Shown: positions 6,431-37,747 of the stretch, in pieces | Position numbering within the stretch: position 1 is the stretch's first letter | Layout: every line of letters begins with the position of its first letter | Assembly: GCF_009914755.1 (NCBI RefSeq) | Contig: NC_060928.1 | Strand: one strand, 5' to 3' | Length of the DNA: 64,000 bases | DNA from: the human T2T-CHM13v2.0 reference genome, Homo sapiens | Position numbers and translations under genes: made by a program | Notes under the pieces: model-generated | What the model was told of the DNA's origin: nothing | Database searches by the model: none | The model's input: the letters and a program-made list of their open reading frames with translations, nothing else

Positions 6431-6710
6431 GGCCGGGCGCGGTGGCTCACGCCTGAAATCCCAACACTGTGGGAGGCCGAGGCGGACGGATTGCCTGAGG
6501 TCAGGAGTTTGAGATCAGTCTGGCCAACATGGTGAAATCCCATCTCCACTAAAAATACAAAAAAGGTGCCGGACGTGGTGGCATGCGCCTGTAATTCCAG
6601 CTACTCAGGAGGCTTGGGCAGGGGAATTGCCTGAACCAAGGAGGTGGAGGTTGCCGAGATTGTGCCACTGCACTTCAGCCTGGGCGACAGAGTGAGACTC
6701 CCTCTCAAAA

Positions 6711-6749
<39 letters not shown>

Positions 6750-6796
6750 ACAAACAAACAAACAAATAAATAAATAAATAAAATAAAAATAAATAA
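6431..6796 (+). mobile_element. AluS with (TAAA)n/(CAAA)n microsatellite tail
   Basis: Full dimer from ggccgggcgcggtggctcacgcc; TSD agaagtagaaacatgc (6414-6429) / agaagtagaagcatgc (6797-6812). Confidence 0.97.
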
Positions 6797-8639
6797 AGAA
6801 GTAGAAGCATGCACCTGGACACTGTGTGTAATTTCCTAATTGCATTCTCCTAACTCACACGCAGAAATAACCAGCATCCTGAGTTGGTGTTGATCATTTC
6901 TTTGCTTACCTATAGTTTTTTAAACCTGTGTTTATTTTCTATAAAAGTCACATCTCTCTATGAATAACTTATTTAAAAGAAGTTTCCTAGAGAGTAATAT
7001 GAAATGCATATTCCTCTGCATTTTCTTTTGCGGAATTTCTCTGCATTTCATATTTCTCTCTAGGAATGTTTTATACAAATATACCATCTAAGAATTCACT
7101 GCAATGTATAAAATAACATTTTGAAGTGAAAAAAGAAGTATGATTTTTTTGATAAGTAAGTCACAGTGTAAGTTTATTCTTTGAATTTTTAATGTTAATA
7201 AATAAAGCTATTACCAAAATAAATACTAGTATTTCCATTTGGAGATACCATCTTGAATTTACCACTTTACTAAAACATGGCTAACTTAATATTAGACTCG
7301 TTGCAGATTTCATCAGGTGTGTTGTTCTGCCCAAAGTTCTGACAAAGCTCAAATCTTAATCTCGTCCAATGAAATCTAGTTATTCTGGACAAGATAACTT
7401 AATGACAAGTTCATGTGAACCCATAATATACTCTTCAATCAATCATTTATTTTAAATATTGCAGAAAAATTATTGCCTATATAAAAGATAGTTGTTTAAT
7501 TAAAAACGTTCTTAGCTCTAGAATCACTCCTTAGCAAATCCATGGGGTGCTTTAAAAAATAAAATCATAATGGTATATTCCCTTGTCTTCACTAGTTAGA
7601 ACATGAATACTAATCATAAAATGTTTCTATATAGTCTACATACCGCATATCTATATGCTAAGCATTGATACTAATTGGGATTTAATCCAAAATTAGTTTA
7701 TTTCTCACCTGAAAATAATAACAGTAATTATATTGGGGAAAGACAAGGTGAAGATGTCCTTTCAATAGGATAAATGCAATGAAGATGCAGAGACATATCT
7801 TTGAATTAATTGAAAAGTAAGTATTTAAGAATGTTTTTACCAGCAGGAGTATGCAGAGCCATCTACAATACACACACGTGCACACACACACACAATGCCT
7901 TTGCTTCTTTTGATTTGAGAGTGTAAGCATGAAGAGGATATAATAATCAGCCATTCTGTTTTTTTTTTCTTATATATTGCAATTACACAGAATTACAATG
8001 AGGAGTTCCTGGGGAAGAAGAACCCAGGAACACTGATTATTGAAACTAACCAGTGTTTCAATATCATTGTTAAATTACTTGCCATCCTATACTTTCATGT
8101 AGCGCTCTTTCTGTGAAAAAAGAAGAAAATAGTATGAAATTACCATGCTAAAATGTTGTACTGTGAACCTACTAATTATGTTTATTGGCTTCAACAAATT
8201 TTTAAATTAAATTCTCAGGGAGAGGGAATGATATCGAACTACCAGTTTCAGGTAATTTATTAGACAATTTGAAAGCTTTAAAAACATATTCAAGGTAGAA
8301 ATTTAAATGTTTCGTATTTATCTTTTTTGGTTTCAGCCAATCAGAATAACTTTATTGAACATTTCCCAAGTCCTGATGTAAACCATCTCTTAGGGTCTTA
8401 AAACCATTAAGCAGCAAAACCTTGGCAAAAGCAACAAGTCATGTGGTATAAGGAAGACCCTTGAAATAACCACAGAGGAAAGGACTTTGGAGTAATGGCA
8501 GAAACCATTATCTTGGCAGTTAATAAACCAACTGGAAGATCACGTCTCCCCTAAGTTCTTTTAACCCCATAATATGGGGTCAGGGAGAGTATGGTACAAC
8601 GAATGGAGGCCGTGATTCCCTTAATCATCATGGGGCATC

Positions 8640-17400: not shown

Positions 17401-18991
17401 GGCTTGCAATTTTATAATTTAAGTAAAATTAAAATTGAAATGTATCATTAAGTATTATTGCCTCTAATAACATCTAAAGCAGTGTTCTGTTCTTTTCTCC
17501 TTTAAAATCTAATTACTGTACAACTAAAACTCCCTTCTTTGTAATAACACTTTTCTTAAGTGTTATTTGTGGAGGTATTTTCTTTCACAATCAGAGAGTC
17601 TAGAAGTTGCCTTTAGACCACTAGACCACTGGGGGTTAAACTGCCAATCACTATTTTTTTTTTTAAACTGAGCCTCATCGTTCATTTTTCCTCATACCAT
17701 TAACTGAGCTTTATCTTCCACTGCATTCCTACTGTGCTTGCTTGCGTCAGCTCCATAGATCACTTTCCTTTTTTTTTCTTTTTTTCTCCTTTCCCCTCAG
17801 ACTAATGAAAATTTTATTGTCAATGTTTCTCTTTATTTGGTAATATTTTAAACTGAAATATTAAAAATAATATTAACACCAGAGTAAACAGTTTCCTTTG
17901 CTTTTTCCTGTCATCGGGTAGACTTTAGTACACAGTACACATAATTATGGTCACCACTAAATTCACATATTTTAGAAATAGTAAGCTTTGCATTACTTTC
18001 CTTTGTTCTCATACTCAACTTTTAACTATTTTTCTTTTAATTGGATTTTTAAATGAAAGTACATTTAAAATTGAGGAGGTTGTCTCAGTGGTGTGAAAAG
18101 TTCAGTGTGTTCTCTTATTTTTTCACTGAAAGTCTGTCTAAATTTTTTTGTAATGGAAAATTTTGAGGCATACTGAAGCTCATGTTTTCTTTATCATGGC
18201 AAATATCCATTAAGTATGAATATTCAAGAAAATTATCTTGTATCATCTTTCATATTTAATTGAATCATACATATTTCCTTTTGGCTAATAACTATCAATA
18301 TTATTTTATTCATATTGTGTAATGAAGCTATATTTGAATATCTTAGTTTTATGGAAACTTTTAAAATGAGAAAATAAAATAATGCTATTCTATTTTGGAG
18401 TATTTCTCTCTAATAAGATGCTAGTAATTTGTTCTTATGTGTGAACAGGACTGCAAAGCATGTATTAGGGTACCTGACATATAATAAATACCAAATATAT
18501 TTTAGGAGCTAACAAAAAGTATTTTGTTAATAAAGATGTCTTCATTAGCAATTATCATTACCTTGATTCTTCCAATCAGTAATGTACATCTTCTTCTAGC
18601 CCCACATGGGCTTTAGTATGACTTACCCAAACAGGAATGAATAGCTTTCTCTCAGGTGCCATGCTGTAAGCTACAGAACTTAGCTGGTATTTCTGCTTTC
18701 ATCCAAGGTTAGCAATTATAATTATACACTTAGTCAAGCTGATTCCTAAGCATCCTCTGAAATTGAGACAACCTGCTCAATTTTAAATGTACTTTCATTT
18801 ACAAATCCAGTTGAAAGAAAAATAATTAAAAATTGAGTGTGAGGGAAAAGGAAAGTAATGCAAAATCTAGTCATACTTGGCTAAATTATTTACCACTGAC
18901 TTTCTAATAAAAACAAAAGGGATTATTTGAAAACAATAAAACCCATGTTATGCAATGAAGTATGTACAGTTTAAAAATCTGTGGAGGGACA

Positions 18992-20165
18992 ATTCCTGCT
19001 GTACAGCATCCTTGGTAGGATTTGGTATTGTCTGAATTTTTTTTTAAAAAAAGATTGCCATTGTAGTAGATGTGTAGTGGTATTTCCTTGTGGTTTTAAT
19101 TTGCATTTTATAATGAACTAATGATGTTGAGTCTTTTTTGTATGCTTATTTCCCATCCTATATCTTCTTTGGTGAAGCGTCTGTTTATATAATTTTCCCA
19201 CTTTTTAACTGGGTCATTGATTTTCTTATTGAAGAGGTTCAAGTATTATTTATGTATTCTGAATATGTCATTTGTAAAAATTTTCTTTTTCTATTCTTTT
19301 TTTTTCTCTGTAAATATGGAACGCTTCACGAATTTGCGTGCCATCCTTGCGCAGGGGCCATGCTAATCTTCTCTGTAGCATTCCAATTTTAGTATATGTG
19401 CTGCTGAAGCGAGCACTCATTTGTAAAAATTTTCTTCCCATCCATGAGTTGTGGTTTTATTCTCTTAAGAGTGTCGTTTGCATAGAAAAATGTTTTAATT
19501 TGATAAAGTATACATTTTTACTTTATGGTCATATTTTTGCTGTTGTATGTAAAAATTTATCAACAAGCCTAAGATCAAATAGATTTTTCTTGAGTATTTT
19601 ATAGATGATTTGTAGTTTCATTTCTTACCTTTATGCTATGATTTATTGATCCATTTTGAGTTAAGTTTTGTATAAGTTGGGAGATATGAGTCAGGACTCT
19701 TTTTTTTAATATGAGTGCCCAAATGTCTTAGTACTATTTGTTACAGAGGCTATCTTTTCTTCACTGATTTGATTTTCCAACTTTGTCAAAAGTTAATTGA
19801 TTATATTTGCATGGGTCAATTTCTGGACTCTATTATGTTTCATTGACTTTTTTATCCTCATAGGTCTTAAAATTATTTAGTGAGATTTTTCTAACTTTGT
19901 TCTTTTCTCAGAATTATCTTGACTATTCTAGTTAGTTTGATCTTCCATAAGGATTTTAAAATAAGCTTGCCTATGTCTATAAAATGCTTGCTTAGATTTT
20001 GAATGGAATTTTTTCAATCTATATGTTACATTGGGAAAAATTGTCATGTTAGCAAAATTGAGTTTTCCAATCCATAAACACTGTATATCTTTCCATTTTG
20101 TTAGAGCTTTTATTTCTTTCATCAGTGTTTTGTACTTTCTAGCATACATATCCTGCGCACATTTT
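18992..20165 (-). mobile_element. Old L1M ORF2 fragment (inverted 5' part of the adjacent L1)
   Basis: gtagtggtatttccttgtggttttaatttgcat, gatccattttgagttaa, tccataaacactgtatatctttccattt are antisense ORF2; ORF 19928-20212 gives an L1 ORF2-like peptide YKTLMKEIK..KWKDIQCLWIGKLN. Confidence 0.85.
19312..19416 (-). pseudogene. RNU6: Full-length processed U6 snRNA pseudogene
   Basis: Reverse complement matches U6 (GTGCTCGCTTC...ACAGAGAAGATTAGCATGGCCCCTGCGCAAGGATG...TTCGTGAAGCGTTCCATATTT) with ~4 substitutions; A-rich tail 19288-19311; perfect 20-bp TSD tcatttgtaaaaattttctt at 19268-19287 and 19417-19436; flanks are L1 sequence with no snRNA promoter evident. Confidence 0.97.

Positions 20166-24659: not shown

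Positions 24660-24699
<40 letters not shown>
24660..24699. repeat. (CA)n microsatellite
   Basis: About 19 perfect CA units. Confidence 0.97.
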
Positions 24700-28750: not shown

Positions 28751-30427
28751 GAAGTCATTCATTCAACTGTAGTACTGAGCAACTACTCTGTGCTTCGGTA
28801 CATCAGATTGACAACCCATGCGTGCTGAAGGGCTCATATTCTAATGGGAAAGGTGAGTAATTAGGAAACAAAAAAATGTTGATGCTTGTCTTGATAAGAT
28901 GACTGCATTGAGCTGGGAGAAAATTACGAGGGGGAAGTGAGGAAACAGGTACATCAGGATGCTCCAAGAGGTGAATTGTTCTATACCTTATTGTTCTCTG
29001 AAAATCTGATTTAAGAAAGTATCTGTATGTTGTTCACATCACTGTATCTAATTACAACTTCTCTTCATGTATGTAAGATGCAAAGAGAGAATATGGGAGA
29101 TTATTTCAACCTCAGTAAAAGTCTGAACCCAGAAAATAAAACAGAACTTCTAGCATTGGTATGTGAACCATATTGCTAAGCAGGAGTAAAGAAACTTTCT
29201 TATAATTACTGCATGAAGATATTCCTTTTTAAACCTATGACGCAAGGTTGCTGCAAACAAACTCTACCTGTTACTGAGGCAGCTTTTGTACCCGCTGAAA
29301 TATCTTCAATTTAATCAGGAGTGTCAAAATCTTCCCTCGTTTTCTTACTGAATTTCTTCATTTTGAATTAATTTTATTCATTCAGAAAATATTTACAAAG
29401 TTTACGTCAAGGCAACATGCTGGAAGATTAGGACCTTGTTCATAGCTTTGGAGAACTTAACCAGTTAGTGAATTAGTGAATCCCCCACTCCCCAATCCCA
29501 CCCCGCTTTTTATTTGCAAAACTTCTTGGTTCTCATGTATAGTCTTCACTCTATCCTTGCTCCTCTTAATTCTTAGGCTCTTGCTTTCTCCTCCTTCTCT
29601 TTCTTCCTTTATTCACTGAAAACCATCTAACTTTTTCATCTAGGTACTGTCTGTCAGTGAATAGTCTGCCCTGCAGTTCCACAAGCAGCACTAATGGAAA
29701 CATATGCGTTTAGTAAGAGGACCTGGGGTGGGAGGAGGGTAAGGGAGGAGATTGTGAGGGAGCTTTGTAGGAAGCACTAAATCTGCCTTCTTTTATCATA
29801 GGTTAAGTAAATGTGAAAGGAGCCCTAGAAAGCTTAAGTGCTTTTTGATGGTGCTTTCTTCAGAAGATGGAGAGAGGAAAAAGAATGAGTGATGTAGCAT
29901 CTTATGCAAGATGCACTTAAGGTCAGATCTCTATATTATTACTCAGCAAGTCTTCCCAATCTTGAAGACATTATCTGGTGGATTTACAGTCCACAGAAAT
30001 TGTAACTTAGGCATTCTTTCACAAAATGCCTGGGAAGAGAAATATGTATTAAGAAAAAAATAAGAGTCAATCCTATGTCTTTTTAAAGATGTAGAAAGAA
30101 GAAACAGTGAAAATAGTTGAAGAAAAAAGCTCTATTTCAGGGATAATAAATAAAACATCATTATAACCTATTTCGCAGAACAATCAGATTATTTTGTGGC
30201 AAAGGTATTTTGTCAGATTACATACAAAACAAAAAGTGTATTCCCAATCTAAAGGAGATGCAGTGAAGATTTGTAGGCATTTACTAAGTGGAAAAAAAAA
30301 CCCCACAAAAACAAAAACAAATGATTTAAGAATCAGTAATGGTTATTTTTTCTTTTCAAAAATTTCTGGATAAATTTTTATTTTGATAAATATCTCATTT
30401 TCCTGGAGGAAGAGATTGCCATAATAG

Positions 30428-30429
<2 letters not shown>

Positions 30430-30466
<37 letters not shown>
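30430..30466. repeat. (TG)n microsatellite
   Basis: About 18 TG units followed by a degenerate TA/CA tract. Confidence 0.95.
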
Positions 30467-30468
<2 letters not shown>

Positions 30469-30589
30469 CATAAATACACACACATATACATGTATACATA
30501 ATAGGATTGTGTATACTTATATGTAAAAGGTACCGATGGCTCTATCTCTGCAACTGAATAGTGTATTCATGAAAGATGCCAACTAGCGC

Positions 30590-31129
30590 AGGGGAAAAGA
30601 AAGTATCTTTTTTCACCCATCCCTAGGTTCATGGCTGAGGGCTTTCAAAAGACAAATTAACAAGAGAAAAGCATATAGATTTATATAATTAAGGTTTATG
30701 TGACATAACTGCCTTCATAAGAAATGAAGACCCCAAAGAAATGATAAACTTGTGTATTTTTATGCTTAGGTTTGAAGTAGGTGTGGCTAGTTTCAAGAAC
30801 TATGGTTGGACAAAGGGAGTCTAATCTAATGGCAATAAACTGTGGGGGACTTAGCAAGCCCTGTTTGTTCAGGTACTTCTCTGTGTCTCTGTATCTTTAG
30901 TGAGAAGGATAATCCTTTCCTCTGGGTATAAGGAGGACACATCTTGAAAGAGAGTCTCATCACTCCTTGCAGGGGACAGGAGAGGAAGAAGGTCAGAGAG
31001 TGACCATTCAAATTTTTATGACCTGCTTCAAGGGAGAAGGACAAGGGGAAAGTAAGGGTGGCCTTCCTTCTGCTATTTTCCCAAATGCAAAGATGCTGTA
31101 CCTTAGGGTAGCATGTACTGAACCCATCA
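30590..31129 (-). mobile_element. ERV1 solo LTR (MER34/MER39-like, MER4 group)
   Basis: aaaagacaaattaacaagagaaaagcat and ggtcagagagtgacc; reverse start reads tgatgggttcagtacatgctaccc. Confidence 0.65.
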
Positions 31130-32955
31130 CTGGTGAATAGTATCCTTTGCCATACAACTAGAACAGAAGTTGACAGTCATTTCTGCTCTACCCATTGTTC
31201 CCGTGACAACTCTGACTGAGGTCTCTCCTTTCTCAAAGCAGTGCTCAGCCCAGCCTCTCAGCACTCAATCTTCTTTATTATACATTGTATTTCCTACTTT
31301 TTCATGAAGTCTAGGTGGCAACCTGAGACTCACATTAAAGTTACTGTCCTCTAAACACCTGTGTCTCTTACCGACTGTCCATCATCCAATTTGATCTATT
31401 TATTTTGTGACATTTTGTAATTTCCACTGTGCATTTCGAGTGTTGGTCAAATGGAAATAGAAACTTTCACAACATCAAACTGTGAAGAATATATTTATGC
31501 TGTTGTGCTTTCTGTTATCATAGTCCTTGCTTGGTAGTGTATTGTGGCTACGACACACTGTGCTAATCTAATCATTGTTTAAAACATGTTGCTTTTAAAA
31601 GGTTTACTACAGGGTAACTGAGCAGGGTGTCCATCCTTTGGACTTAATGAAAACTATAGAAATGTAGTGTCTTTTTTCCAAAGGAGGTATTCTTAATTAT
31701 CGTTCCAGTTGTTCATTTTAGTATTTAATTTAAGGACCTGAAATTGTTGGGTAGCAATGAAAAATGAATCTTAAGTTTCTTGCTGTTTGCACAATTTTGC
31801 AGTGGTGAATAAAAAATATCAAGGAATATGTGGGAGAATCTATGACTGTATCTCTTCTAGCCATATCTTCATAAGGAAATCATTTTAAGAATGCCGACCA
31901 CAGATTTTTAGCCTCATTTCAACTTCAAAATCACAAGCTGTACTGACAGATGAGTCATGAATCTCTTCTCTTCTGGTCTAAGTGAAGAAAAAATAAAACA
32001 TCAGGAAATACAATGGTTTTATAACAGTGATTGTTTTATTTAGGTCTTGAACATGGGAAGGTATTTCATTCCACTATGCTACAACATAACAAAACATTCT
32101 ACTTACATCTCAAAATTCCTGCCATGTCATTACAATTTATCACACATAACTTTTGGTATGTTTGTTTGGGGCATCTGATTTCTGTAACTCAGTGAAGCCT
32201 AATCTTTCCTTGTTTAATGCCAAGGGCAGATCCTGGGCAACAGAGTCATGTTTCAGAAATGTCAGGCATACTGAGGAAGTACAAACCACCAGTGGCAACT
32301 GCTCCTTATACTGTCCTCTGAAAAGCAAGCACTCAGGCGTCTCTAGGCCCAGCATCCTTGGCGGCTTTGTTCTTGTTGGAAGCAATTGCATACAATGACT
32401 TTAGTACAGAAGGGCATCTGATAAGTATAGAGTATTTTTGAAATGTGTTTTTTGCCTTGAAACACATCTGTTAGGTAGAAAGGGTGAGATTTTTTAAAAA
32501 ATTTCCATTTGACAGACATGGAAGCAAATGCACAAAAATTATTCAGGGTGTACCTAAATAGGTCATTTATTTGTGACTTACCAGACCACAAACCTAACTC
32601 TAATATATCAATTATAATATTCACCAACTACTTAAGAACAGATTTTCAGAACACTTGGAATGGGAGAATAAAATTTACATTAGTTGTATGCATCTATTTT
32701 AACTGGTTTCCAATTTTAACATGTTAAAAGAAGCAATAGAGAGACAGAGAGCTGCCCTGTGGTAGCTGGTGCCAGGACCACAACCAAATCTCAAGGATTC
32801 TCAAGTGTTCAGTTTCCTTTGTTTCTTGAAAATGACCAGGAATATAGCCAATATTATAAGTAAACAGCAAAAGAATAAAAATATGTGTTTTTTTGATTCT
32901 AAAAATATAATGAAAGATGAGAAAACTTAAAAATATTTCAAGGTAAATTTTAACC

Positions 32956-33377
32956 ACAATCTTTTATATGGAATATCATTCCTTGTTATCAAGCACAATG
33001 TCTCAACTTAAAAAAATTTAATATATCCAATTCAGATACTACTTACTTATTTATGGTCTTAAAGACCCAAATGTACTCTAGCTTATTATTGTAGTAGACA
33101 TCCAAAAGAAAAAATGCAAGGTGGTTAAAAATTCCTTTCTGTAAAATGGTTTTTAAAATTTTTACTGAATAAAACAATCTTTTGGATGTCTACTACAATA
33201 ATAAGCTAGAATGCCTAAATACAAAAAATATTGATAATAAAAGTTTTCAAAGGCATGTACATTTGGGTCTTTAAGACCATAAATAAGTAAGTAGTATCTG
33301 AATTGGATATATTAAATTTTTTTAAGTTGAGACATTGTGCTTGATAACAAGGAATGATATTCCATATAAAAGATTGT
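32956..33377. repeat. Perfect 121-bp inverted repeat with nested 33-bp inverted repeat (templated insertion)
   Basis: 32956-33076 = revcomp of 33257-33377; 33077-33109 = revcomp of 33178-33210; 33125-33174 = revcomp of 33644-33693 (1 mismatch). Confidence 0.95.
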
Positions 33378-34532
33378 TTTTATATAAAGAAAGTTATGCA
33401 AAGCACATTTTCTTACAGAGTTTATGGTTTCGTTAATGCAAGTGATTCACATTTATTGTCTACTATGAGCTAAGTTTTCTTCACATGCAGCCTTTCATTT
33501 AATTCTCACAACAGTTTCCCAGAGTTGAGATATACAGAGGTAAAGCTATTTGTCCAAGGAAAAAATATAAAAAAGTAGTAATTGGCCAAACCAGGATTTT
33601 ATTTCAGATATGTAAGCCTTCAGAAGTCAAATTTTTTTCTTCATTTTATTCAGTAAAAATTTTAAAAGCCATTTTACAGAAAGGAATTTTTAAGCAGATG
33701 GTGACATTGAAGAATAACAACCTTAGAATTTTTAACAGCTCATTTGTAATGTAATTTTGTATTTCAAATATTCAATAGTCAATAGAAAAAGTGAAAAATA
33801 CAAGACTGAAAGCTGAATTAATGATTTGGGAAATCAAATGGCAAAGTTTCCCAGAACAAAACAGTACACTATGAAGATTCAAGAATGACAGGAACAAGGG
33901 AAATTTAGAAGAAATCCAGGGAAACTACTGAACAATAGGCATTCTGGAAGGCAATGAAAAAGACATTATAGGAAACACACAAACCATGAATAGAGCAATC
34001 ACATTGGTTGCAAAAGAGTTGAGGTTTTAAGTCATGCCAACCTAGTGCCAAGTATGATTAATGAAAAGAAGGTACACACCAAGACCTAGCCTGGTGCAAT
34101 TTCATCCACTCTAAGGATGAACTGAAAAAGCATATAAACTTCATGAGAGCAAAGTAGAGTCAATTTTGATCACACATCACATCTGCACCAATGAAGTCTA
34201 GAAGACAGTACAATTCTCTGAACCAAGAATTCTTCAATTTGTCAAGATATTAAAAAAAAGAAGAAGAAAAAAGTTAAGCAAGAAAGCAAGCTAGCTATGC
34301 GTACACTTATACACATACATACACACACACACACACACACAGACTATACATACTCTGGGACAATGTGTATATAATCCCTTATATATCTCTATGAAAGGGA
34401 TATAGACATTCTTAAAAAATTACTCAAGAAAACACTAGAGTTGAATGAAAATCATGTCATTTTTAATTCATATAAAAAAATCTCAAAATAGAGGACAGTT
34501 TACTAAGAAAGCACAGTTAAAAATGAATCTAG

Positions 34533-34828
34533 TAGGCGACACATGGTGGCTCAGGCCTATAATCCCAACACTTTGGGAGGCCGAGGTGTGAGGATCACTT
34601 GAGACCAGCCTGGGCAACATAAAGAGACCCCATTTCAATAAAAAATAAGAAAGAAAACTAGCCAGATGTGGTAGTGCACACCTGTAGTCCTAACTACTTG
34701 GAAGGTGACGTGGGAGGATCGCTTGAGCATGGGAGGTTGAGGCTGCAGTAAGCTATGATCATGATCACACCACTGCACTCCAGCCTGGGTGACTGGGCAA
34801 GACCCTGTCTCAAAAAAAAAAAAAAAAA
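34533..34828 (+). mobile_element. AluJ
   Basis: ggatcacttgag, gggaggatcgcttgagc...gaggctgcagtaagctatgatc J diagnostics; internal deletion in left arm; A tail. Confidence 0.93.
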
Positions 34829-35614
34829 TCTAATAGAATTCACAGTTAATCCAAACTGATGATGACAGTATGGTTGTGAACACAATTCTTGATATAAGAA
34901 GCATTTGGTAAAAACAAAAACAAACAAAAAAGATTACAGTTTTACAGTTCACTTAATAAAACATAAGAGTTCATGAAGATTGGAAAAATAAAGAAGAAAA
35001 TAAGTATGTCCTGAAGATTTTGTGTTAGAGGAAAGACTTATTAATTGCTTTCAATGGACAGTATTAATAAATAGACATATGCTTAACTGTTGTCATTAAA
35101 ATCATGAAGAAAAGCAGAGGAAATTGTATATGTATATGCATAAAGACTTGAAATTATTGACTTGAGGAAAAACAGACAAATTACTTTATCAAGTAATACA
35201 AAAAGGAAAAAGAAAGGAAAAAGAAAGAATATTGAATGAGAAAAGTCAAATAGGACAGGATGAATAAACTCAAATGTATTTATTATAAGAATAACTGTAA
35301 ATAAGTTACAATTCTTTATTGAAAAATGGAGACTTCAGTTGGGTTAAAAATTTCCAGCTCTATCCTGATTGCCAGAAAAAAGGCAGATCTTTGAAAGTAA
35401 CAAAGGACGTTATAGGCAAAGATATCTCCAGGGTGTCAATTAAAATGGAATACTTTTATCTTATGATGAAGGAACATTTGTATTTATTGAGTGTTATGTT
35501 GCAAGAAGTCGGTTTGGGGAAAAAGATTTTATTATCCTTGTTTTACAAATTAAAAAATAAGGTACACAAAGCATAGACGATTTACCTGTTGACTGGTACT
35601 CATATAAATATAAT

Positions 35615-35930
<316 letters not shown>

Positions 35931-36695
35931 TGAATAGAATTTCTTTATGAAATTTGACTCACAATTCTTTATGTTATTTATTACACCAAACTTTATTATT
36001 TAAAATACATGGTTAAGCACTTGCACATATTTATAACAGCTAAGCTATTATGCATAGAATTCACTACCTATTCCTAACCTTTAAATAATCAATATCAATA
36101 TTTTTATTCACAATAAAAATACTGTAATCAGATAGGTATCATAATGACACAGTGGCTCAATAGAAGAGAGAACCAAAATTTATCCAAGTGTAAATGGGAA
36201 TTTTATATGTGATATAGATTAAATTATCTGCTGGCTAAAAAAGGCAATACTGATTAATAATAGTGTTGGGCAATTGATGATCCATTTGAAAAATATAAAA
36301 TTAGATCCAAAGGTATACATAAGTGTATTTGCATTGAATTAGAGCTCACAATGTAAAAATTGTTAAGTAAATAAATAAACAGGGTTTGATACAAATATCA
36401 GGGTATTTTCATAATTTGGGAGTGGATAAGATCTTTTTACTCCTAGAGTCCATAAAGAAAAAAAAACTGAACTACTTTGTTGCACAAAAATTTTGAAGCC
36501 TCTAAAAAGACAAAAAAGGAAGATAACATATTGGGAAGAAGATATGATCTTATTACTCTTAAACAAAATGATCCTAAAATGTGGAAGAAAAATGTAAACA
36601 AACATCTTAATGAACAAAGGATGTGCTCAAGAAATTTAAAGAAAAAGAGCTATAGAAGTCTGATAAACTCATGAGTAGATGTTCACTCTCATTAG

Positions 36696-37747
<1,052 letters not shown>

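What the first reader, a model, noticed from the sequence alone, without database searches (positions are those of the whole stretch)
32948..33693. Serial template-switch insertion built from three inverted local copies, with the pre-insertion allele recorded inside it
Seen: the 10-mer acaatctttt occurs at 32956-32965 and 33174-33183, bracketing ~218 extra bases that are almost all inverted copies of neighbouring DNA. Segment A (32956-33076) is the exact reverse complement of 33257-33377 (121/121) and is entered through that 10-nt microhomology. Segment B (33077-33109) is the exact reverse complement of 33178-33210. After 11 unassigned nt (aaaaatgcaag), gtggttaaaa (33121-33130) is the reverse complement of 32948-32957, so B reads back across the original site (ttttaaccacaatcttttggatg). 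Segment C (33125-33174) is the reverse complement of 33644-33693 (49/50), entered via ttaaaa. The exit aaaacaatctttt also equals the reverse complement of 33368-33380. Inference: one repair or replication event with at least 4 template switches, as described for FoSTeS/MMBIR or polymerase-theta templated insertions. Near-perfect identity implies a recent, possibly lineage-specific or polymorphic event. It does not look like a transposon, so repeat annotation would likely miss it.
Basis: partly seen in the sequence, partly recalled or inferred. Interest (0 to 1): 0.8.

Follow-up and report, generated by a model that had tools for sequence, protein, structure and literature searches.

The report
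Local inverted-copy insertion from template switching
A 218-base stretch in a human gene desert is a patchwork of backwards copies of the DNA just beside it, a clear but ordinary scar of a copying enzyme that jumped between strands.

Summary
A is 121/121, B 33/33, C 49/50, x 10/10, and the 10-mer flanks a 218-nt block. These lengths are far beyond background. The 103 exact inverted pairs with spacer <=500 nt in the window are 10-16 nt long, except 24, 33 and 121, all at this locus. The region is single-copy in its own genome, so it is not a repeat family. Homology stops sharply at the edges.

New here: the 46 nt skipped between the templates of A and B end in a perfect 6-bp stem (4.4e-4 of such intervals). 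A and B therefore look like one copy that bypassed a hairpin. Positions 32956-33130 are then the reverse complement of one contiguous ancestral stretch that spans the insertion site.

Best reading: one DNA-templated, microhomology-primed, multi-switch insertion, most likely replicative (MMBIR-like). On a recalled mutation rate it is younger than about 27 My.

The kind is known. Germline complex templated insertions and polymorphic inverted duplications (median 284 bp) are in print. No primate or pangenome data were available, so the empty-allele prediction is untested. There is no sign of function.

The parts
32948..32957 (.). Last bases of the left flank plus the first 2 nt of the 10-mer. This is the template of segment x.
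   Evidence: 10/10 with the reverse complement of 33121-33130; it is the only one of 12 candidate sites that matches.
32956..32965 (.). Left copy of the 10-mer ACAATCTTTT. It is junction microhomology: it could be original sequence or the outer end of copy A.
   Evidence: (D6).
32956..33076 (.). Segment A, an inverted copy of 33257-33377.
   Evidence: 121/121; longest exact inverted repeat in the window.
33077..33109 (.). Segment B, an inverted copy of 33178-33210. It continues A after a 46-nt skip in the template.
   Evidence: 33/33. I3.
33110..33120 (.). 11-nt filler with no assignable template. It stands in place of the 2 nt 32958-32959 in the inverted copy of the site.
   Evidence: no match of 10 nt or more covers it within 30000-36500 on either strand. 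Only A-rich 8-12-mers that overlap B's end, and two 8-mers, were found.
33121..33130 (.). Segment x, an inverted copy of 32948-32957. Its last 6 nt (TTAAAA) are shared with C.
33125..33174 (.). Segment C, an inverted copy of 33644-33693.
   Evidence: 49/50, mismatch at 33150. I2 extends it to 53 nt at 96%.
33174..33183 (.). Right copy of the 10-mer ACAATCTTTT. Unique right-flank sequence resumes here.
33178..33210 (.). B', the template of B. It begins inside the 10-mer and runs into the right flank.
33211..33256 (.). 46-nt template stretch that was not copied. Its ends, ATGCCT and AGGCAT, form a perfect 6-bp stem, so this is the inferred bypassed hairpin.
   Evidence: the minimum-energy fold uses exactly this stem (-4.6 kcal/mol, z -1.18); 28 of 63,955 46-nt intervals in the window have such a stem.
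33257..33377 (.). A', the template of A. Its last 10 nt (33368-33377) are the pre-existing inverted partner of the 10-mer.
   Evidence: The extended match 32951-32965 against 33368-33382 is 13 of 15.
33644..33693 (.). C', the template of C, 460-509 nt to the right of the insertion point.

Best explanation
The block 32966-33183 (equally 32956-33173) is a derived 218-bp insertion. A DNA polymerase wrote it after leaving its template and copying nearby single-stranded DNA of the same polarity, so each copy reads as a reverse complement.

Shown:
- 207 of the 218 nt are exact or near-exact inverted copies of unique DNA lying 0-509 nt to the right.
- The insert draws on two templates. The first is one contiguous ancestral stretch that spans the insertion site itself (32948-32965 joined directly to 33184-33377). 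It was copied with a 46-nt skip and with 11 nt in place of 2 nt. The second is 33644-33693.

Inferred:
- It was one event, primed at a pre-existing 10-bp inverted seed (13 of 15 when extended) that lay 184 nt from its partner in the ancestral allele.
- The polymerase stepped over a hairpin in a single-stranded template.
- It switched again at TTAAAA (8 of 9 when extended) and then returned to the original template.
- The copy crosses the site and includes bases from the left flank. The template was therefore probably an intact strand, such as a lagging-strand template or a sister chromatid. This points to a replicative inter-strand switch (MMBIR/FoSTeS-like) rather than snap-back on one broken end.
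- The direction of synthesis cannot be told. Read leftwards, the 10-mer is the return microhomology and no target duplication is needed.

The product is a 154-bp near-perfect hairpin-forming inverted repeat in a gene desert. Nothing indicates a function.
For: - Exact matches and junctions.
- The copies abut (A|B|filler|x|C), while the templates lie apart in the order B', A', C', in one orientation, separated by unique DNA. The left block is therefore the derived one by parsimony.
- The region is single-copy in the own genome. An 851-nt query found only itself and its own inverted arms.
- There is no older homology outside the arms. The outer-flank local score is 13 against a shuffle mean of 14.86, and 172 of 200 shuffles reach it. 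Matching collapses beyond 32951 and on both sides of C.
- The skipped 46 nt end in a perfect 6-bp stem. Such a stem occurs in 28 of 63,955 intervals, or 4.4e-4, and it is the stem chosen by the fold.
- x matches only the site-adjacent candidate.
- The background of exact inverted pairs ends at 16 nt.
- Print precedents: germline complex templated insertions from up to five templates, with microhomology at 138 of 155 and 135 of 148 resolvable junctions (PMC8421209, section 10 part 1 and passages). Also 277 polymorphic inverted duplications of median length 284 bp, mostly with 1-15 bp microhomology, attributed to replication (PMC12350158, passages).
Against: - No outgroup or second human haplotype was available. 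The empty allele, the polarity and the one-event claim rest on parsimony alone.
- The A/B junction has no microhomology, and the hairpin is not unusually stable: z is -1.18, and 26 of 200 shuffles fold as well.
- One end junction (C to right flank) has only 1 nt of microhomology, or 4 nt by an alternative route.
- Eleven nt have no template.
- The x evidence is modest (P = 0.045 for any candidate site). Positions 33122-33130 also fit an extension of the C template at 8 of 9.
- The C template lies 460-509 nt away. That is beyond the 100-bp window used to define MMB-TIs (PMC8421209).
- If synthesis ran rightwards with a direct return, the return point lies 10 nt before the departure point. That order was never observed in the four-point survey (PMC5453318, passages).
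Confidence: 0.7

Rival explanations
1. Double-strand-break repair by polymerase-theta-type end joining. The 3' tail of one resected end repeatedly snapped back on itself, copied, dissociated and re-primed. It was finally annealed to the other end through the 10-nt microhomology.
For: - All large templates (B', A', C') lie on one side of the site, in the orientation expected for snap-back on the right end's 3' tail.
- An 11-nt untemplated filler fits the mixing of templated and non-templated addition shown for this enzyme (PMC4912351, passages).
- The final joint has 10-nt microhomology.
- One error in 204 copied nt would suit a low-fidelity polymerase. This fidelity figure is recalled and comes from no call.
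Against: - Continuous copies of 121 nt (154 nt with B) and a template 460-509 nt from the break are far beyond the reported tracts. The median insertion was 7 bp, and snap-back tracts were 8-15 nt in the passages read.
- Segment x includes 2 bases of the left flank, which are not on the right end's tail.
- No flanking bases were lost. End joining with templated insertions usually comes with deletion; this point is recalled.
Confidence: 0.12
2. Several separate mutations rather than one event. For example, a fold-back inverted duplication of B'-hairpin-A' came first, followed later by loss of the 46 nt from the copy and a separate insertion of C and the filler into the spacer.
For: The nested palindrome A-B-spacer-B'-A' is what a simple fold-back duplication gives. 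The only mismatch lies in C, so the identities do not force one date for all the parts.
Against: - All parts are at 98-100% identity, which leaves little time for a series of events.
- The 46-nt gap is bounded exactly by a stem and has no flanking direct repeat of the kind that later deletions usually use.
- C is joined to x through shared TTAAAA and abuts the 10-mer exactly.
- Multi-template single events are documented (PMC8421209).
Confidence: 0.1
3. RNA-templated insertion. A nick at the T-run of the 10-mer primed reverse transcription of a local transcript (L1 ORF2p-like). The reverse transcriptase jumped along the RNA, and a staggered second nick gave a 10-bp target-site duplication.
For: - A 10-bp direct repeat flanks the block, and the left copy ends in TTTT, followed by G in the ancestral order. 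This resembles the L1 endonuclease site TTTT/A and its target duplications of 7-20 bp. Both figures are recalled.
- Skipping a hairpin and switching template are typical of reverse transcriptases. This is also recalled.
Against: - There is no poly(A) or T-run at the junction.
- The source lies within 510 nt of the target, which retrotransposition does not predict.
- No transcript is annotated here (hub table).
- The 10-mer repeat is fully explained by the pre-existing inverted seed at 33368-33377.
Confidence: 0.03
4. An artefact of the assembly, or a mutation private to the cell line from which it was made, and not a human germline allele.
For: Near-perfect identity is also what a very fresh somatic or culture event, or a chimeric fold-back read, would give.
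Against: - The structure is not a simple fold-back. It has five ordered pieces, microhomology joints, and normal unique flanks on both sides.
- The locus is unique, non-repeat DNA, where consensus from many reads is reliable (the hub table lists no masked stretch at this locus).
- Read data could not be inspected.
Confidence: 0.03
5. A small DNA transposon or MITE with terminal inverted repeats and a target-site duplication.
For: An inverted repeat and a 10-bp direct repeat are both present.
Against: - It is single-copy in the genome.
- The unit bounded by the direct repeat (32966-33173) does not have inverted termini. The inverted partners lie outside it.
- 100% arm identity does not fit human DNA transposons, which are long extinct. 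That they are extinct is recalled.
Confidence: 0.01

Closest known systems
Complex germline MMBIR-type templated insertions (MMB-TI, 'complex' class; Osia et al. 2021, PMC8421209)
   Same: - Inverted copies of nearby DNA.
- Several templates in one insertion. The paper reports up to five, with 33 and 26 complex events in two people.
- Microhomology or interrupted 'microhomeology' at most junctions.
- Return to the original site without a gross rearrangement.
   Different: - The paper's search is bounded by read length and by templates within 100 bp.
- Here the insert is 218 bp, one continuous copy is 121-154 nt, and one template lies 460-509 nt away.
- One junction is a hairpin bypass with no microhomology.
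Polymorphic human inverted duplications seen as insertions in long-read data (Schloissnig et al. 2025, PMC12350158)
   Same: Size class (277 events, median 284 bp), mostly 1-15 bp microhomology at the breakpoints, and a proposed replicative origin (passages).
   Different: - That class is defined at SV-caller resolution and says nothing of internal multi-template make-up.
- Whether this locus is polymorphic is unknown. A search of the one held supplement file for the window's CHM13 coordinate prefixes found nothing. The full callset is not in that file.
Short-range template-switch mutations, four-point model (Loytynoja & Goldman 2017, PMC5453318; Loytynoja 2022, PMC9435742)
   Same: - A reverse-complement fragment copied from nearby DNA.
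- It creates or extends an inverted repeat from a pre-existing short one.
- Leading/lagging mirror cases cannot be told apart.
- Rare long cases exist: the longest is 318 bp, with maxima of 97-180 bp in unmasked DNA. A double event of 62 + 32 bp is also described.
   Different: - The mean length there is 11.56 bp.
- The model allows one reverse fragment. Here at least two are needed, plus a filler.
- In the rightward reading, point 4 precedes point 1 by 10 nt, an order not seen in their survey.
Polymerase-theta-mediated end joining with templated insertions (Kent et al. 2016, PMC4912351)
   Same: Alternation of snap-back templated and untemplated addition, and re-priming at microhomology.
   Different: The tracts here are one to two orders longer, the templates are much farther away, and no flanking sequence was lost.

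Membership tests
MMBIR-type complex templated insertion (MMB-TI) | The insert is an inverted copy of nearby sequence. | tested here: met
   121/121, 33/33, 49/50 and 10/10, all as reverse complement. 207 of 218 nt are assigned.
MMBIR-type complex templated insertion (MMB-TI) | Template within 100 bp of the insertion (the operational rule of MMBSearch; PMC8421209). | tested here: inconclusive
   B' and x overlap the site. A' lies 73-193 nt away and C' 460-509 nt away.
MMBIR-type complex templated insertion (MMB-TI) | Microhomology at the switch junctions. | tested here: met
   Entry or return: 10 nt (13 of 15). x/C: 6 nt (8 of 9). C to flank: 1 nt, or 4 nt by another route. A/B: 0 nt, but at the base of a stem. 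The two filler junctions cannot be resolved.
MMBIR-type complex templated insertion (MMB-TI) | Arises from a collapsed fork or break-induced replication, with the polymerases of that pathway. | not testable with these tools
   This needs genetics or fork-direction data.
Four-point short template-switch mutation | A single reverse-complement fragment (2->3) between two forward fragments. | tested here: not met
   At least two reverse fragments (the contiguous stretch across the site, and C') plus an 11-nt filler are needed.
Four-point short template-switch mutation | Point 4 does not precede point 1 (PMC5453318). | tested here: inconclusive
   Met if synthesis ran leftwards. Not met, by 10 nt, if it ran rightwards with a direct return.
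Polymerase-theta templated insertion | Short templated tracts taken from DNA next to the break. The median insertion was 7 bp in the study read. | tested here: not met
   Tracts of 121 nt (154 with B) and 50 nt, with a template up to 509 nt away.
DNA transposon / MITE | A multi-copy family. | tested here: not met
   only the locus itself and its own inverted arms match in the 3.1-Gb own genome. The tool warns that its counts are lower bounds.
DNA transposon / MITE | Terminal inverted repeats just inside the target-site duplication. | tested here: not met
   The inverted partners of A, B and C lie outside the unit bounded by the 10-mer copies.
L1-mediated (target-primed) insertion | A poly(A) tail at the T-rich end of the target duplication (recalled feature). 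| tested here: not met
   there is no A- or T-run at either junction beyond the TTTT of the 10-mer itself.
Polymorphic human inverted duplication (long-read SV class) | An inverted copy inserted near its source, hundreds of bp long, with 1-15 bp breakpoint microhomology (PMC12350158). | tested here: met
   218 bp, with junction microhomology of 10 and 1 nt.
Polymorphic human inverted duplication (long-read SV class) | It segregates in human populations. | not testable with these tools
   No second human haplotype was available. The supplement search found nothing.

The most novel reading that the evidence does not exclude
The insertion is human-specific or still polymorphic, and the perfect hairpin it created in one step (154 paired bases; DNA fold -176.8 kcal/mol, z -36.75) is transcribed and processed. 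That would make it a newborn small-RNA or double-stranded-RNA locus, as shown for template-switch-born miRNAs in primates (PMC10710096, abstract). A second, mechanistic version: B-filler-x is an inverted copy of an end-joined break junction, so the insert would preserve a repair intermediate from the sister molecule.
Probability: 0.05. Interest if true: 0.5.

Novelty: new member of a known kind. Interest (0 to 1): 0.27.

Why it matters
- It is a clean, fully resolved example of a multi-step template-switch insertion at the long end of the known size range.
- It has two readable details that bear on mechanism. First, the copy steps exactly over a template hairpin, which argues that the template was single-stranded. 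Second, the copy runs back across its own insertion site into the left flank, which argues for an intact second strand as template rather than one broken end.
- Such loci are missed by repeat annotation, and in alignments they look like clusters of unrelated indels.
- For genome biology at large it is ordinary. Hundreds of such inverted duplications are known to segregate in humans, and this one lies in a gene desert with no sign of function.

Tried and rejected
- **Orthologues and other human haplotypes.** No tool holds them. The own-genome tool states that the genome has no relatives held.
- **Template for the 11-nt filler.** Searching 30000-36500 on both strands gave only 8-12-mers, mostly A-rich. 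They include an 8-mer at 33435-33442 and a 9-mer at 33633-33641, next to the C template. I rejected these as chance-level.
- **Older diverged palindrome homogenised by gene conversion.** Rejected. The outer flanks align no better than shuffles.
- **Known RNA family.** No match reaches a gathering score. The best match over the locus is mir-559 at 22.5 bits against 95, and it is simply the B/B' hairpin.
- **Background scan.** 200 kb upstream was fetched and scanned.
- **Locus in a published callset.** The one held supplement file of PMC12350158 has no entry starting with the window's coordinate prefixes. This is uninformative, because the full callset is not in that file.
It adds only AAA to the 10-mer and is not significant (E = 0.49).
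Full report
**Observation**

- Segment A (32956-33076) is the exact reverse complement of 33257-33377, 121/121.
- Segment B (33077-33109) is the exact reverse complement of 33178-33210, 33/33.
- Segment C (33125-33174) is the reverse complement of 33644-33693, 49/50, with the mismatch at 33150.
- Segment x (33121-33130) is the reverse complement of 32948-32957, 10/10.
- The 10-mer ACAATCTTTT stands at 32956-32965 and at 33174-33183.
- Eleven nt (33110-33120) match nothing.

The 218 nt between the two 10-mer copies add up as 111 (A beyond the 10-mer) + 33 + 11 + 4 + 50 + 9. So 207 of 218 nt are assigned.

**More than chance**

The window has 103 maximal exact inverted pairs of 10 nt or more with a spacer of 500 nt or less. 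Their lengths run from 10 to 16 nt, and then jump to 24, 33 and 121, all three at this locus.

I also scanned 264,000 bases (the window plus 200 kb upstream) and read the 40 longest exact inverted pairs. The 121-mer is the longest. The rest are a (TA)n microsatellite, an A-run pair, an Alu-like 27-mer pair, a 26-mer at window 18050, and this locus.

- Segment x rests on 4 informative bases. Of 12 places within +-750 nt that carry the shared TTAAAA, only the one at the insertion site fits. The chance that any fits is 0.045, and that this one fits is 0.0014. Positions 33122-33130 also fit an extension of the C template at 8 of 9.
- The 13-mer 'exit' identity adds only AAA to the 10-mer (E = 0.49).

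**What it is not**

- An 851-nt query over the locus finds only itself and its own inverted arms in the 3.1-Gb genome the window comes from. It is therefore not a repeat family. The tool warns that its counts are lower bounds.
- The hub table lists no masked repeat between 28761 and 34539.
- The unit bounded by the 10-mer copies has no inverted termini of its own.
- Homology ends abruptly. Beyond 32951 only 1 of 11 positions match, and both sides of C collapse as well. The outer flanks align no better than shuffles: score 13 against a mean of 14.86, with 172 of 200 shuffles at least as good. This is not an old palindrome partly homogenised by conversion.
- No Rfam family reaches its gathering score.

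**Which side is the copy**

The three copies abut each other on the left. Their partners lie apart on the right, in one orientation and in the order B', A', C'. They are separated by 46 and 266 nt of unique DNA. One composite insertion on the left explains this. The reverse would need three separate insertions, each taking one of three adjoining pieces. This is parsimony, not proof.

**New anatomy**

The template stretch between B' and A' that was not copied (33211-33256, 46 nt) begins with ATGCCT and ends with AGGCAT, a perfect 6-bp stem at its two ends.
- Only 28 of 63,955 46-nt intervals in the window have such a stem, or 4.4e-4.
- The minimum-energy DNA fold of 33205-33262 uses exactly that stem.
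- The hairpin is not unusually stable: -4.6 kcal/mol, z -1.18, with 26 of 200 shuffles as good. The evidence is therefore positional, not energetic.
- The A/B junction has no microhomology.

I therefore read A and B as one continuous copy that stepped across the base of a hairpin in a single-stranded template.

With x included, 32956-33130 (175 nt) is the reverse complement of one contiguous ancestral stretch. That stretch is 32948-32965 followed directly by 33184-33377, 212 nt in all. The arithmetic is 212 minus the 46-nt hairpin, minus 2 nt (32958-32959), plus the 11-nt filler. So the insert is an inverted duplication of a stretch that contains its own insertion point, followed by one further templated piece (C).

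**Mechanism**

In the ancestral order the 10-mer and its inverted partner (33368-33377) were 184 nt apart. They formed a 10-bp seed, 13 of 15 when extended to 32951-32965 against 33368-33382. Such seeds are common, so the site is not special.

Two mirror readings fit equally well.
- **Rightward.** A nascent plus strand leaves after 32965 and primes on the plus strand at the seed. It copies leftwards through A', passes over the hairpin, and goes through B' and across the site. It then switches at TTAAAA (8 of 9) to C', and returns with 1 nt of microhomology, 10 nt before its point of departure. Alternatively it returns by a short extra stop at 33368-33381.
- **Leftward.** A nascent minus strand leaves after 32956 and copies C', then the site, B' and A'. 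It returns through the 10-nt seed, and no target duplication needs explaining.

In both readings the templates have the polarity of the nascent strand, as in a switch from the leading strand to the lagging-strand template. Because the copy includes two bases of the left flank (inside x), an intact second strand is the simplest template.

This is why I prefer a replicative, MMBIR/FoSTeS-like process. Those two names are recalled, not read. The polymerase theta alternative fits less well. In the passages I read, polymerase theta end joining gave a median insertion of 7 bp and snap-back tracts of 8-15 nt (PMC4912351). Here the tracts are 121-154 and 50 nt, one template is 460-509 nt away, and no flanking base was lost. 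Polymerase theta or another terminal-transferase-like activity may still have written the 11-nt filler.

**Unexplained**

The filler sits exactly where 2 nt of the 10-mer are missing from the inverted copy of the site. No template of 10 nt or more covers it within 30000-36500. It may be untemplated, or made of very short pieces. Alternatively the template may itself have been an end-joined junction.

**Age**

There is 1 difference in 204 copied nt. I assumed 0.5e-9 changes per site per year on each copy. That rate is recalled, not from a call.
- The point estimate is about 4.9 My, with a 95% range of 0.12-27 My.
- If the mismatch was a copying error, the age is under 18 My.

So macaque is predicted to lack the block, and the state in apes is open. 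Conversion between the arms would make this an underestimate.

**Consequence**

As single-stranded DNA, 32940-33390 folds into one long hairpin of -176.8 kcal/mol. Shuffles give -34.96 +- 3.86, so z is -36.75. The 46-nt stem-loop sits as a side branch. The locus lies in a gene desert; the hub table lists only a U6 pseudogene, at 19312-19416. Nothing indicates a function.

**Comparison with print**

- Germline complex templated insertions with up to five templates occur at about 100 per person (>=25 bp), of which 33 and 26 were complex events. Microhomology is present at 138 of 155 and 135 of 148 junctions (PMC8421209, passages and section 10 part 1).
- Long reads from 1,019 people gave 277 inverted duplications outside mobile-element events, with a median length of 284 bp. 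Most have 1-15 bp microhomology, and they are ascribed to replication (PMC12350158, passages).
- Short template-switch mutations average 11.56 bp but reach 318 bp. A 62 + 32 bp double event is described (PMC9435742, passages).
- The four-point model and its unobserved '4 before 1' orders are in PMC5453318 (passages).
- Template switching has produced new primate miRNA hairpins (PMC10710096, abstract).
- PMC10766183 and PMC7954356 were seen only in a search listing.

This locus is therefore a new, unusually legible member of a known kind. I found no print mention of this particular locus, but I searched only one supplement file for it.

**Verdict**

Interest is low to moderate. The decisive test, an empty allele in apes or in other humans, could not be run here.

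Noticed in passing
window 17987-18087 and 18764-18864: A second local inverted duplicate. The arms are 101 nt and 91 of 101 complementary, with a 676-nt spacer and sharp edges. It is single-copy in the own genome. It looks like an older event of the same class, about 15 kb from the finding.
   Followed up: partly
window 33081-33206 (+): A sub-threshold Rfam match to the mir-559 precursor model (22.5 bits, gathering score 95, E = 0.42). It is simply the B/B' hairpin scoring as a generic stem-loop, not a family member.
   Followed up: yes
window 36824-36935; 24660-24699 and 30430-30465; 6708-6750: Simple tandem repeats of period 5, 2 and 4. These account for most of the other long exact direct and inverted matches in the window.
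   Followed up: no
L005 about 8338-8391 (190 kb upstream of the finding): A (TA)n microsatellite, self-complementary. It dominates the list of exact inverted pairs in the 264-kb background scan.
   Followed up: no
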